A DNA stretch of 64,000 bases from Eledone cirrhosa. Its lineage: Eukaryota. The stretch spans positions 1 through 64,000 of the forward strand of contig CAXHJY010000472.1 in the NCBI GenBank assembly GCA_964016885.1, read 5' to 3'. Both the position numbers and the translations under genes were made by a program. Shown one piece after another: positions 4,825 to 63,141 of the stretch (position 1 is the first letter of the stretch; every line of letters starts with the position of its first letter). The notes beneath the pieces are model-generated. The model was not told where the DNA came from, made no database searches, and saw only the letters and a program-made list of their open reading frames with translations.

Positions 4825-5013
4825 TGTAGATAAATCTACCAAGAGTTTACGGTAGTGTCCAATCCGTATGAAGAACTCAATGTATTCCGGATATCATGGA
4901 AACAAGAGATGTAATGAAAAATCACTTTCGGTGAAAGATAAACGGTATACAGAGTCAAGATAAAATATTAAACAAATAATGAATAAACAATTCCTTATAT
5001 TAAACAAAAAAAG

Positions 5014-5167
5014 TTCATTATTTAACGATCGTTTCTAGGATATATATGTGTTAGAATTGGTATGCATATTCAACAGATCTATGTACAAAATTATACAAAA
5101 TTATACAAATTATCAAGATTAAATATACATACCAACACATATATACGCCGTCTTCAGAAATAATGAA
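5014..5167 (-). ncRNA. Type I hammerhead ribozyme with long stem II, PLE pLTR
   Basis: Reverse complement of the motif at 17682-17836. Confidence 0.72.
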
Positions 5168-8100
5168 GTATATTTATTGATAATAACAACAATTCAAAAT
5201 TTCAGGTCCGTTTGGGAACAAAATTGACCAATGAAAACACAAAGGGTTAAATGCAGTTCGGTGTGTGTATATACATGTAAAACCCTTACACATATGTTAC
5301 AAAAATGTATGTATAATTTGTATACGCATACTAAAAGGATGGATGCAAATACAAAATTTCAAGGTTAATGTCTCTGTAAGTTTATAGTGCACAGATAAGA
5401 TGCGTATTGACACTTATGAAATTAAGTATATAAATATATTTTTTCATACTCACACATATCCGTACAATCACACATACACGCGCGTATATGCATAAATATA
5501 CACATAACCACGAACATACAAACACACACACACCCCCTCTCACATTTATATATGTGGATATAAAATCATAAGCACATGGATATTAATTCACTCACATAAA
5601 ACACTGGCACACACATTTTTAGATCAAGATACAGAAGTTAGGTGGGAGGGGGGGGGGGGAGAGGTCAGTATTCAACGGTCTGAGCAGACTGCCTAATATA
5701 GATGTATCTATAAACTAAGAAAATAAAAAATAATAAATAAACATTAAAGAGGAAAGAATAGAAAGAGAACAGAAAAAAGAAAAAAGAAAAAAGAAATATA
5801 TCAAGAAAATAAATATATATATATACAAATATACACATACATATATATATATATATACACACACATATATACATATAATATACATATATATACACATAGA
5901 CACACACACATACATACATAAATATACACACATATACAAACACATCCATACATATACACACATCCACACTAAGAACATACATACACACACATATATAAAC
6001 ATATACATATACACACATACATACATATACACATATACATACAAATACACATATATATATATATATATATATATATATATATATATATATATATATACAT
6101 ACATATGTATATACACGTACATATACACACACATATACATATAATCACACATACTATATAGACACAGATATATATAACCACACACATACATGCACATATA
6201 TAACACTTACATACTAATATACATACAGATATACACATACATAGCTATATATACACACAAATATATACAGACTTACATATATACATACAGACAAATACTT
6301 ACGCATCTATATATCGGTGTATACATACAAACACCACTACACTATCACACAACTTAGAAATACAAAGAGAAAGGTATATACCTATACACACATACATATA
6401 CAAATAGAAAAACATATAGATATATATATATATATACATATATACACACACATATACACATACATATATATATATACAACATATATATATATATATATAT
6501 ATATATACACATACACATACACATACACACACATACACATATACACACATACATACATGTACACACACATAGAAATATTTACGCATACACACATACACAC
6601 ATACATATAAAGTCATACACACACATACACCTACACGAACATACACATACACATATATAAAGATATATATACACACACACACACACAACACATACACACA
6701 TACACATATATATAAAAAATAAATAATAAAGATATATACATATATATATACATATACATATATATATATATATATATATATATATATATACACATACACC
6801 TAAATATACATACACATACATACACACATACATAGACATACATGTACATACATACACGTACATCGATATACATACATATATATATACACACATAGACATA
6901 TACATACATACACACACAACTTACATACACACATATATATACATGTATATTCATACATAGAATTAGATATATAATCATACATACATATGCACTTACTTAT
7001 ACTCATATATACAAATACATACGCATCCATATATGCGTATATACATAAAAACACCACTACAACCTCACATAACTCAGACATACAAATAAAAATAATAATA
7101 AAAAGGCATATGTATATACATATATACACGCATTAATAGAGATATATATATACACATACATATATATATATATATATATATATATATATATATATATACA
7201 TATACATACACACATACATTCATACATATATATATATAGATACCCACACACTCATACCACCATAAATACACATACAAACACCCACATATACATATATATA
7301 CACACGTATATATATATATATATATATATACACACACATAAAAAACAGACATGCACATATATATATATTTTTTTACACTTATATATACACATATTATATA
7401 CACATACACAACCTCACATATACACACATACACATAAGTTATATTATAATAATAAAATAATATATATATATATATATATATATATATATATACATACATA
7501 CATATATATATATATATATACATATAAACATATACATACATATATACACACATACAAATATAGACATATATTCACACATAGACACCTATATATATATATA
7601 TATATATATATATATATATATATATATATATATATATATACACACACACACATATACACAGACACATATACACACTCACATATATATGTGTGTGCACACA
7701 CACATATATACACACATACATATATATATATATACATACACATATACATATACACATTCACATACACATACATATATACATGCATATATACACATATATA
7801 CATACATACACACACTCATATATACACACACAATCTTACATTCATATTTGCATGCGCATATATGTATTTTTATATTTAGATATAAATACCCAAACCTATA
7901 TAGACACCTACCTACATATATATTCATACATACACGCTTACAAATACAGATGATAATAGTATGGGGAAAGGGGGGGTTTGGAGAAGGGGATCATAGTAAA
8001 TATATGTTTCAAGAAACATAGAATATTTTCCGTATCTTTATCCAATGTATGTTTTTACATAGTTTCAGTGTTAGGAAATACAACAAACAAGAACTAAGGC

Positions 8101-59673: not shown

Positions 59674-62355
59674 TATATATATATATATTTATATATATAT
59701 ATATATATATTTATATATATATATATATATATATATATATATTTATATATATATATATATATATATTTATATATATATATATATATATATATATTTATAT
59801 ATATATATATATATATATATTTATATATATATTTATATATATATATATATATATATATTTATATATATATATATATATATATATATATTTATATATTTAT
59901 ATATATATATATATATATATTTATATATATATATATATATATATTTATATATATATATATATATTTATATATATATATATTTATATATATATATATTTAT
60001 ATATTTATATATATATATATATATATATATATATATATATATATATATATATATATTTATATATATATATATTTATATATATATATATATTTATATATAT
60101 ATATATTTATATATATATATATATATTTATATATATATATATATATATATATTTATATATATATATATTTATATATATATATATATTTATATATATATAT
60201 ATTTATATATATATATATATATATATTTATATATATATATATTTATATATATATATATATATATATATTTATATATATATATTTATATATATATATATAC
60301 ATATATATATATATATATATATATATATATATATATATATATATATATATATATATATTTATATATATATATATATATATATATATATATATATATATAT
60401 ATATTTATATATATATATATTTATATATATTTATATATATATATATATATATATTTATATATATATATATATATATATTTATATATATATATATATATAT
60501 ATATTTATATATATATATATTTATATATATATATATATATATTTATATATATATATATTATATATATATATTTATATATATATATATATTTATATATATT
60601 ATATATATATTTATATATATTATATATATATAATATATATATATATATATATATATATATTTATTATATATATATATATATATATTTATATATATATATA
60701 TATATATATTTATATATATATATATATATATATATATATATATATATATATATATATATTTATATATTTATATATATATATATATATTTATATATATATA
60801 TATATATATATTTATATATATTTATATATTTATATATATATATATTTATATATTTATATATATATATATATATATATATATATATATTTATATATATATA
60901 TATATATATATATATATATTTATATATATATATATATATATATATATATATTTATATATATATATATATATATATATATATATATATATATATATATATA
61001 TATATTTATATATATATATTTATATATATATATATATATATATATATATTTATATATATATATATATATATATATATATATTTATATATATATATATTTA
61101 TATATATATATATATATATATATATATTTATATATATATATATTTATATATATATATATATATATATATTTATATATATATATATTTATATATATATATA
61201 TATATATATATATTTATATATATATATATATATATATATATATTTATATATATATATATATATATTTATATATATATATATATATATATATATTTATATA
61301 TATATATATATTTATATATATATATATATATATATATATATATATTTATATATATATATATTTATATATATATATATATATTTATATATATATATATATA
61401 TATATATATTTATATATATATATATATATATATATATATATATTTATATATATATATATATATATATATATATATATATATTTATATATATATATATATA
61501 TATATATATATATATATATTTATATATGTATATATATATTTATATATATATATATATTTATATATATATATTTATATATATATATATTTATATATATATT
61601 TATATATATATATATATATTTATATATATATATTCATATATATATATTTATATATATATATTTATATATATATATATATATATATTCATATATTTATATT
61701 ATATATATATATTTATATATATATATTTATATATATTTATATATATATATTTATATATATTTATATATATTTTATATATATTTTATATATATATATTTAT
61801 ATATATTTATATATATATATTTATATATATTTATTTATATATATTTATATATATATATTTATATATATTATATATATTATTTATATATATATATTTATAT
61901 ATATTTATATATATATATTTATATATATTTATTTATATATATTTATATATATATATTTATATATATTTATATATATATATTATATATATATATTTATATA
62001 TATTTATATATATTTATATATATATATTTATATATATTTATATATATATATTTATATATATATATTATATATTATATTTATATATATTTATATATATATA
62101 TTTATATATATTTATATATATATATTTATATATATTTATATATATATATTTTATATATATATATATATATTTATATATATATATATTTATATATATATAT
62201 ATTTATATATATATATATATTTATATATATATATTTATATATATTTATATATATATATATTTATATATATATATTTATATATATATATATATATATATTT
62301 ATATATATATATATATTTATATATATATATATATTTATATATATATATATATATA
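59674..62355. repeat. (TA)n microsatellite
   Basis: Directly visible. Confidence 0.98.
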
Positions 62356-63141
62356 TTGGAATAAATGCTCTGAAATAGCGATATATATGTGAATATAGAC
62401 ATAGAATATTCGAAAATATTCTGTATGTTTATAATAAACATTTTGAAGACCTAATCGCTATAGAATAGAATACGTCACGTATTACAATTAGATTCTCGAT
62501 AAAAGCAAGGAAGTAATCTACGCGTTTCATTCTCGTTAGAATCATCAGGACTACATATCCAGTGCTTTTATCGAGAATGACACAGCTAGAGACTTATAGA
62601 ATACTTAGCTGTGTACAGGAACTGGTTTGAAAGAGCGGTTGCGGTCCGGCAGAAATTAGAAATTGGAATAAATGCTCTGAAATAGCGATATATATGTGAA
62701 TATAGACATAGAATATTCGAAAATATTCTGTATGTTTATAATAAACATTTCAAAATGTTTATTATAAATGTTTATTATAAATGTTTATTATAAACATACA
62801 GAATATTTTCGAATATTCTATGTCTATATTCACATATATATCGCTATTTCAGAGCCTTTATTCCAATTTCTAATTTCTGCCGGACCGGCAACCGCTCTTT
62901 CAAACCAGTTCCTGTACACAGCTAAGTATTCTATAAGTCTCTAGCTGTGTCATTCTCGATAAAAGCACTGGATATGTAGTCCTGATGATTTCTAACGAGA
63001 ATGAAACGCGTAGATTACTTCCCTTGCTTTTATCGAGAATCTAATTGTAATACGTGACGTATCTATTCTATAGCGATTAGGTCTTCAAAATGTTTATTAT
63101 AAACATACAGAATATTTTCGAATATTCTATGTCTATATTCA
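62356..63141. mobile_element. Palindromic insertion of the 310-bp retrozyme-like unit (62356-62750 -, 62751-63141 +)
   Basis: Each arm is ~1.2-1.3 units with one HHR; the junction has AATGTTTATTATA three times. Confidence 0.88.

What the first reader, a model, noticed from the sequence alone, without database searches (positions are those of the whole stretch)
4825..63141. One asymmetric palindromic insertion rule shared by five HHR-bearing families
Seen: A, B, C, E, F, G and the 62.4-63.1 kb element are all head-to-head inverted pairs with both 3' ends abutting (TA)n, and in each one arm is longer. In the main PLE the short arm ends at ...TTTAATATTTT|AT in all three insertions (11088, 11286, 43205), while the long arm runs ~135 nt further to ...TATCTACA (4825, 25194, 53004). 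Extensions are ~65 nt (E), ~57 (F), ~170 (G) and ~33 (310-bp unit). Known: PLEs often carry an inverted 5'-truncated pLTR and a 3' extension. Inference: two fixed, family-specific priming sites downstream of the HHR cut, one per target strand (twin-priming-like on a tandem or circular RNA), using A/T microhomology with the target. The reproducibility across families may be undescribed.
Basis: partly seen in the sequence, partly recalled or inferred. Interest (0 to 1): 0.85.

Follow-up and report, generated by a model that had tools for sequence, protein, structure and literature searches.

The report
One-long, one-short Penelope insertion ends
These mirror-image insertions come from five families of Penelope-type jumping genes, in a layout already described, but in this genome almost every two-armed copy pairs one fixed long end with one fixed short end, which likely means both cut DNA strands start copying the same RNA at two set points.

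Summary
The asymmetry is real. The seven named elements are head-to-head pairs in (TA)n with one long (L) and one short (S) 3' end; tails are 134, 67, 59, 173 and 33 nt. E, F and G are truncated pieces of autonomous Penelope-like elements: three families are Hydra-type, F is Neptune/Nematis-type, and the 310-bp unit is a retrozyme. On contig C1, 210 of 215 ends fall on S or L, and 129 of 134 two-armed copies are L/S. One L/L and one S/S exist. 'All' is too strong: three more ribozyme-bearing copies in the window, and 6 of 20 unbiased PLE-A insertions on C1, are one-armed. The two arms share their template variants. The short arm often reaches further 5' than the long arm, which argues against fold-back. 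The predicted ribozyme cut does not set the ends, and microhomology is only 1-5 nt. Inverted pLTR, one-sided tail and two in-vitro start sites are published. The near-obligate pairing, long tails and one-RNA evidence were not in the papers I read. This scan reported the same rule earlier on other DNA of this genome and in other genomes.

The parts
4826..11088 (.). Insertion A, family PLE-A (Hydra-type): minus-strand long arm (L end 4826, 5'-truncated ORF to ~10672) joined head-to-head to a 417-bp plus-strand arm ending at S (11088)
11286..25193 (.). Insertion B, PLE-A: minus arm ending at S (11286-17292); plus arm 17293-25193 = upstream pLTR read through S and L, frameshifted RT/GIY-YIG ORF (about 18180-20610), 3' region, pLTR, L end
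43205..53003 (.). Insertion C, PLE-A variant: minus arm ending at S (43205-~48270) reaches further 5' than the plus arm ending at L (53003); both arms carry the same subfamily variants
41337..41685 (-). Fourth PLE-A copy: L end, 5' stop at the ribozyme edge, only a 13-15-nt inverted stub and no S end (exception to 'all')
24851..25005 (+). Type I hammerhead of PLE-A (core CTGAAGA at 24861, long stem II, palindromic stem III, predicted cut after GUU near 24995); other copies at +10892, +17692, +52663, -5157, -11483, -41666, -43409
   Evidence: fold; cleavage untested
25060..25193 (+). PLE-A tail (134 nt between S and L)
29861..30280 (.). Insertion E: L left, S right, 67-nt tail, hammerhead cores at -29987 and +30221; truncated copy of an autonomous Hydra-type family (758-aa frame in L310)
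35268..35858 (.). Insertion F: L left, S right, 59-nt tail, hammerhead cores at -35520 and +35663; truncated copy of an autonomous Neptune/Nematis-type family (frame in L296)
35994..38200 (.). Insertion G: L left, S right, 173-nt tail, variant hammerhead core CCGAAGA near +38046; truncated copy of an autonomous Hydra-type family (808-aa frame in L308)
62358..63140 (.). 310-bp retrozyme, two-armed: L left, S right, 33-nt tail, duplicated hairpin sequence at the junction
57420..59671 (+). 310-bp retrozyme array, 7.3 direct units, L end, no inverted arm (exception)
40970..41300 (-). Sister family of F, single arm with an F-like short end and a hammerhead-like core at -41214 (exception)

Best explanation
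Two-armed copies of four Penelope-like families and one retrozyme end at one long and one short fixed site, likely because the element protein nicks both strands of (TA)n and each nick primes reverse transcription of the same RNA at its own site. Shown: two fixed ends per family; L/S pairing; both arms carry the same template variants; arms stop independently or together at the 5' edge of the ribozyme; junctions are blunt or overlap by a few bases. Inferred: an asymmetric (probably dimeric) RT-endonuclease complex holds one RNA. In the Hydra-type families each start is predicted to be set 6-10 nt before a short RNA helix (RCWC/GWGY). One to five bases of TA pairing would fine-tune the start. 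The L-primed enzyme would displace the S cDNA when it runs through S. The two cDNA 3' ends would then be joined by microhomology and repaired. If only one cDNA is fixed, a one-armed copy results. Ribozyme cleavage is probably not part of this step.
For: Fixed ends: 210 of 215. Pairing: PLE-A 23 of 24 by coordinates (the 24th resolves into two L/S insertions), E 25 of 27, F 19 of 19, G 22 of 23, 310-bp 40 of 41 (the 41st is L+7/S). Independent choice of site allows at most 50%; binomial p 2e-6 to 2e-7 for PLE-A, E, F and G. Both sites prime: one-armed S copies (L350, L048, L036) and one-armed L copies (L104, L086, L110) exist. S reaches further 5' than L in 28 of 85 simple pairs, the same point in 39, L further in 18. 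Examples include a near-full-length S arm beside an L arm stopping at the usual 5' stop (L299, L306). One template: substitutions per site within vs between insertions are 0.0016 vs 0.031 (PLE-A), 0.0029 vs 0.011 (E), 0.0096 vs 0.026 (F), 0.0097 vs 0.025 (G). Off the hot spot, both arms stop within 20 nt of each other in 9 of 36 pairs against 1.9 expected. Retrozyme arms share one haplotype in 18 of 20 insertions against 0.19 by chance, and in L360 both arms switch haplotype at the same unit counted from the 3' ends. All 6 Hydra-type ends have RCWC at +6 to +10 with a downstream partner, against 17 of 115 local TA/AT positions. In vitro, a Poseidon protein nicks and extends both strands, starts at two sites that bound the tail, and is modelled as a dimer (PMC11167929).
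Against: No biochemical test of these proteins. No RNA run was available. One true S/S and one probable L/L exist. Frangieh et al. saw no strand preference for either start site and call priming non-homologous. Arm similarity could come from gene conversion after insertion: in F and G the own partner is the closest arm in only 7 of 15 and 7 of 21 cases. The same-point excess comes mostly from G (5 of 17) and is also predicted by fold-back. Small fold-back stubs do occur (window 41337-41685; L105). The RCWC helix is absent from F and the retrozyme and was looked for after a lead, so its odds are post hoc. L356 shows a variant in all S-arm units but only the inner L-arm units, which does not fit both enzymes starting in the same unit.
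Confidence: 0.62

Rival explanations
1. Both strands are primed, but on two separate RNA molecules from the same donor, held by an asymmetric dimer in which one subunit always uses L and the other S.
For: Explains strict L/S pairing and overlapping arms without strand displacement. Transcripts of one donor share variants. PLE-type and amphibian hammerheads can act as dimers (PMC7229834 passages, for the amphibian case).
Against: Does not predict that both arms stop at the same off-hot-spot position (9 of 36 vs 1.9). Needs an extra reason why the subunits differ.
Confidence: 0.17
2. One priming event at L; the cDNA folds back and copies itself, and the sense copy is cut or joined to the target at S ('endonuclease-mediated resolution', as suggested for the tail in PMC8557442).
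For: Gives L/S pairing, shared variants and same-point junctions (39 of 85) automatically. Short fold-back stubs exist. Later lopsided deletion at a palindrome centre could make either arm longer.
Against: S extends further 5' than L in 28 of 85 pairs, with six PLE-A L arms lying wholly inside the tail. One-armed S copies exist. In L360 the S arm matches the outer, not the inner, units of the L arm. In L356 the S arm has 7 variant units where the L arm has 2. Both sites are start sites in vitro for Poseidon.
Confidence: 0.13
3. Assembly or read artefact (fold-back reads), or unrelated hairpin DNA transposons.
For: The window is an unplaced 64-kb contig, and its arms differ by single-base indels typical of noisy consensus.
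Against: Thousands of identical junctions in the genome, hundreds listed on C1. The flanks are not duplicated. The arms are pieces of RT/GIY-YIG elements. Illumina reads of two other samples show the L end running into (TA)n (495 and 545 reads), and a short-read contig under another organism label shows the inverted junction at 17685.
Confidence: 0.02

Closest known systems
Typical EN+ Penelope-like insertion: inverted 5'-truncated pLTR plus optional tail (Adineta vaga Pen2a, PMC3846280 passages; PMC8557442 passages and fig. 2 legend)
   Same: [quoted passage not shown]
   Different: Tails here are 33-173 nt (published: 30-40). Pairing is counted and near-obligate (129 of 134). The target duplication cannot be read in (TA)n.
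Poseidon of Anolis carolinensis in vitro (Frangieh et al. 2024, PMC11167929; parts 1-2 of 4 read)
   Same: Two internal start sites bounding the tail, both strands nicked and extended, A/T-rich target, ribozyme cleavage dispensable, dimer model.
   Different: That paper reports no strand difference in start site and no homology at priming, and does not analyse L/S pairing within insertions. Here 1-5 nt of TA microhomology and mutual exclusion are seen.
Hydra clade of PLEs (PMC8557442 section 11 read)
   Same: PLE-A, E and G have RWK/RWR, DKT, CxCX5C, a C-terminal GIY-YIG-type domain without CCHH, hammerheads and (TA)n targets.
   Different: PLE-A (7.2 kb), E (5.4 kb) and G (3.5 kb) are longer than the '<3 kb' given there. 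No tree with named references was built.
Animal non-LTR retrozymes (PMC7229834 passages; bioRxiv 10.64898/2026.07.22.740005 parts 1-2 of 5)
   Same: 310-bp tandem unit with a type I hammerhead and no ORF; proposed to be moved by PLE proteins.
   Different: Here it shows the PLE footprint directly (head-to-head arrays, 33-nt tail, 40 of 41 L/S). 'Inverted' occurs 0 times in PMC7229834 and once in the preprint.
L1 twin priming (recalled, not read)
   Same: Both target strands prime on one RNA and give an inverted 5' part joined by microhomology.
   Different: In L1 the second site is variable and the two cDNAs copy adjacent parts of the RNA. Here both sites are fixed and the arms overlap on the template.

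Membership tests
EN+ Penelope-like elements | Single ORF with PLE-type RT and a GIY-YIG-type endonuclease | tested here: met
   Frames of 758, 808 and 731 aa in L310, L308, L296 and fragments in the window carry YRDD/YVDD and YIG...R...H motifs. Pfam support is weak: GIY-YIG E 0.019, RVT_1 E 0.005, both below cut-off.
EN+ Penelope-like elements | Partial tandem (pLTR), inverted 5'-truncated copy, tail | tested here: met
EN+ Penelope-like elements | Hammerhead motif in the pLTR | tested here: met
   Canonical cores in PLE-A, E, F. G has a U4C variant, a natural variant of lower activity according to PMC3088659 (passage). Cleavage not tested.
Hydra clade (PLE-A, E, G) | RWK motif, DKT, CxCX5C linker, no CCHH, (TA)n target | tested here: met
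   E: RWR, DKT, CNCLNKEAC. G: RWK, DKT, CNCHLPDRC. PLE-A: CNCRNKANC; RWR and DKT read by eye from frameshifted window DNA. (TA)n after 214 of 215 ends, all four autonomous families pooled.
Hydra clade (PLE-A, E, G) | RT phylogeny groups with named Hydra elements | not tested
   No named reference sequences were available through the tools.
Neptune/Nematis type (F) | CX2-5CxxC linker plus CCHH in the endonuclease | tested here: met
   CIDKKCITC; C..C between VVY and YIG, then two His; 18% identity to E. Neptune vs Nematis not resolved. Best named homologue is a hypothetical Octopus vulgaris protein at 68%.
Non-LTR retrozyme (310-bp unit) | Non-coding tandem unit of 150-450 bp with a type I hammerhead in every unit | tested here: met
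Non-LTR retrozyme (310-bp unit) | Expressed as linear and circular RNA; self-cleaves | not testable with these tools
   No RNA holder was listed for the stretch searched, which was PLE-A and not this unit.
Twin priming on one RNA | Both arms copied from one RNA molecule | tested here: inconclusive
   Shared variants and shared stop points favour it, but two RNAs from one donor or later gene conversion are not excluded.

The most novel reading that the evidence does not exclude
Penelope-like elements of at least two clades, and the retrozymes that borrow their enzyme, integrate by obligatory two-site twin priming. An asymmetric dimer binds one RNA at two structural modules (in Hydra-type families a repeated RCWC/GWGY helix) and primes both nicked strands at once, so that pLTR inversion and the tail are the direct footprint of one reaction with no RNA-templated second strand.
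Probability: 0.45. Interest if true: 0.72.

Novelty: new variant of a known kind. Interest (0 to 1): 0.5.

Why it matters
How Penelope-like elements make their inverted pLTRs and tails is stated as open in PMC8557442, and the steps after first-strand synthesis as unvalidated in PMC11167929. A near-obligate L/S rule with one-template evidence turns that into a direct experiment using an assay that already exists. It also gives a sequence footprint linking an animal retrozyme to PLE enzymes, and a practical rule for setting the boundaries of these abundant repeats (787 to 8,795 exact anchor matches per family here). The layout itself is known, so the gain is mechanistic sharpening, not a new system.

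Tried and rejected
Rfam at E<=1 showed only hairpin-driven miRNA matches among the 150 rows listed of 234, no hammerhead; the ribozymes rest on motif search and folding. Pfam did not recognise the PLE-A fragments. A strict hammerhead script found only F. A DNA search returned only the 40 best full-length hits and is biased to L, so patterns were used instead. The 4311:1560 ratio of L to S junction patterns is not a usage ratio, because the S pattern covers a variable base; the unbiased sample gave 15 L, 14 S, 1 other. No RNA holder listed; no long-read run was listed either. The short end was not among the loose-end rows shown (411 rows not shown), and family F was not checked with reads. The idea that the ribozyme cut sets the template 5' end was rejected: stops cluster at the stem I 5' strand (45 of 95 PLE-A stops in one 10-nt bin at -340; 35 of 60 E stops at -140 to -121). 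A fixed distance from the TTGAGT motif to either end was rejected (55, 49, 101 nt to L). MFE folding of cut-to-L regions showed no structure common to all five families. Literature searches that found no statement of obligatory L/S pairing. Subscription papers (the original Penelope papers of Evgen'ev and Arkhipova, Cervera and de la Pena 2014) were not readable, and no supplements were read. Those of PMC11167929 (fig. S2) and PMC8557442 (file S1) may bear on the novelty claim.
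Full report
Setting. The window is a whole 64-kb contig (C499) of a 3.0-Gb genome, 20% G+C and mostly (TA)n with inserted elements.

Observation in the window. All seven named elements are head-to-head inverted pairs whose 3' ends face (TA)n. 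A (4826-11088), B (11286-25193) and C (43205-53003) belong to one family, PLE-A. The short arm ends at ...AATATTTT and the long arm 134 nt further at ...TATCTAC. Tails are 67 nt (E), 59 (F), 173 (G) and 33 (310-bp unit). Three further ribozyme-bearing copies break the word 'all': a fourth PLE-A copy with an L end and a 13-15-nt stub (41337-41685), the direct 7.3-unit array 57420-59671, and a single-armed sister of F (about 40970-41300). Type I hammerhead cores are canonical in PLE-A, E, F and the 310-bp unit. G has CCGAAGA instead (62 of 69 matches) in a three-way fold, a variant that PMC3088659 calls natural but less active (one passage).

What the families are. Longer copies on contig C1 show that E, F and G are 5'-truncated pieces of autonomous elements with frames of 758, 731 and 808 aa. 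PLE-A, E and G carry the Hydra-clade marks listed in PMC8557442 section 11: RWK/RWR, DKT, CxCX5C, no CCHH, (TA)n targets. F is 18% identical to E and has the CX4CxxC linker plus CCHH of Neptune/Nematis-type elements. No tree with named references was built. The 310-bp unit is non-coding and fits the non-LTR retrozyme definition.

Are the ends fixed? Exact junction patterns occur 1,560 (PLE-A S), 4,311 (PLE-A L) and 1,013 (310-bp L) times, and reversed controls 0. I took loci through anchors upstream of both ends: the first 30 matches on C1 for each of PLE-A, E, F and G, plus fetched head-to-head candidates from the 100 listed for E, F and G. Of 215 terminal ends, 210 lie within 8 nt of S or L and 214 are followed by TA-rich sequence. 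E's short end is split over three sub-sites.

Is the pairing strict? For PLE-A, pairing the 100 L and 33 S junctions listed in C1:0-99.6 Mb gave 23 L/S, 1 L/L and 0 S/S within 20 kb. The L/L is two separate L/S insertions. E gave 25 L/S of 27, F 19 of 19, G 22 of 23. The 310-bp unit gave 40 of 41 after dropping 21 of 100 S-pattern hits that are internal variants; the 41st is L+7 with S. In total 129 of 134, where independent choice allows at most half. Either end can be left or right. Exceptions are real but rare: one S/S with 99.4% identical arms (L373, found among the 100 listed S ends, outside the interval above) and one probable L/L with a nested element (L275). One-armed copies are common: of the 20 insertions behind the first 30 PLE-A anchors, 12 are two-armed, 6 one-armed (2 S, 4 L) and 2 unresolved.

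Artefact check. Illumina reads from other samples show the L end running into (TA)n (495 and 545 reads in X14 and X16). A short-read contig of X4, under another organism label, shows the inverted junction at 17685. The S end was not among the rows shown.

Mechanism. Three models give L/S pairs: twin priming on one RNA, twin priming on two RNAs, and one priming plus fold-back. In 85 simple pairs the S arm reaches further 5' in 28, the L arm in 18, and both stop within 15 nt in 39. Six PLE-A L arms lie wholly within the tail, and one-armed S copies exist. S therefore behaves as a start site in its own right, which fold-back from L cannot explain without later deletion. Arms of one insertion are 2.5-19 times closer than arms of different insertions, although gene conversion could add to this and the own partner is not the closest arm in over half of F and G cases. 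Away from the stop hot spot, both arms end at the same place in 9 of 36 pairs against 1.9 by permutation (0 of 20,000 shuffles reach 9), mostly in G. This fits two enzymes running off one broken RNA. In 20 retrozyme insertions chosen from the 40 L/S pairs, both arms and nearly all units share one haplotype in 18, against 0.19 by chance. Junction phases are scattered and do not sit at the ribozyme cut (part of that output was cut). L360 switches haplotype after the two outermost units in both arms, which fits one mixed template read from its 3' side and not fold-back. L356 does not register in that way. Uniform arrays fit a circle, while L360 fits a mixed linear multimer, so circularity is not shown.

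What sets the sites. Both sites lie downstream of the predicted cut, at family-specific distances. The cut itself is not the template end: short arms stop at the 5' strand of stem I (45 of 95 PLE-A stops, 35 of 60 E stops; weaker in F and G), probably a transcript start (inference). Template and target share 1-5 TA-alternating bases at the ten sites, at least 2 at nine by my reading and fewer for the commoner E alleles, against 18-24% TA/AT locally. Longer TA runs nearby are hardly used. Following a lead from earlier finding e1-8668527, all six Hydra-type ends have RCWC 6-10 nt downstream with a complementary partner, one with a double change (GCAC/GTGC). The background is 17 of 115 TA/AT positions, many next to the true sites. 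F and the retrozyme lack it, but F's two ends share AATATCG.

Comparison with the literature. The inverted pLTR with an optional 31-bp tail is the 'typical Penelope structure' (PMC3846280, passages). PMC8557442 says the 30-40-bp tail is often at one end only and ascribes it to endonuclease resolution (passages). PMC11167929 (parts 1-2 of 4) shows in vitro that both strands are nicked and extended, that two start sites bound the tail, and that ribozyme cleavage is dispensable. It reports no strand difference and no homology at priming. Six searches found no statement of obligatory L/S pairing, tails above 40 nt, or this footprint on a retrozyme; older subscription papers and all supplements were not seen. 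Earlier agents of this scan reached the same rule in this and other genomes, which is not independent support.

Verdict. The feature is real and is a known PLE layout. The quantified mutual exclusion across two clades and a retrozyme, with one-template evidence, is a useful sharpening that makes an open mechanism testable. Interest 0.5.

Noticed in passing
window 18130-18185; L310, L308, L296 just after L: A splice-acceptor-like TTAG (TACATTTAG, TACATTTTAG, TATATTTAG, CCTTAG) lies 28-42 nt before the start codon in all four autonomous families, so the tails may sit in a 5' UTR intron and the template may be unspliced RNA. No RNA data.
   Followed up: partly
window 17685 / 24854: The PLE-A 5' stop hot spot falls at the A of TCATT, which resembles an initiator (consensus recalled). 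F and its sister both stop at AAAATGGCG, which resembles a YY1 site (recalled).
   Followed up: no
window 55545-55571: A 27-bp island in (TA)n; similar ends flank TA runs in L111 and L178, so it is probably the 3' stub of another (TA)n-targeting family.
   Followed up: no
window 40970-41300; L275:1576-4482: The single-armed sister of F matches an element with its own long RT/endonuclease frame nested in L275, i.e. a sixth PLE family in the window.
   Followed up: partly
window 1078-2969 (-) and 30514-34909 (+): Two LINE-type elements with RVT_1 hits (E 3e-30 and 2e-30) also sit in the (TA)n tract; the second looks RTE-like with C-terminal zinc fingers (label recalled).
   Followed up: no
window 62750-62779; L351, L365 junctions: Retrozyme head-to-head junctions often hold short repeated or rearranged template pieces, as from enzyme slippage or template jumps.
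   Followed up: partly
L286-L287 (C1:83.68-83.69 Mb): Twelve family-E anchors on one strand at about 1.08-kb spacing, each sampled one ending at L with (TA)n: a tandem amplification of a whole insertion with its target.
   Followed up: no
window 21900-24200 and equivalents: PLE-A and E carry 1.5-2.3 kb of degenerate (TA/TG) microsatellite inside their own 3' region, which other PLEs use as a target (L275).
   Followed up: partly
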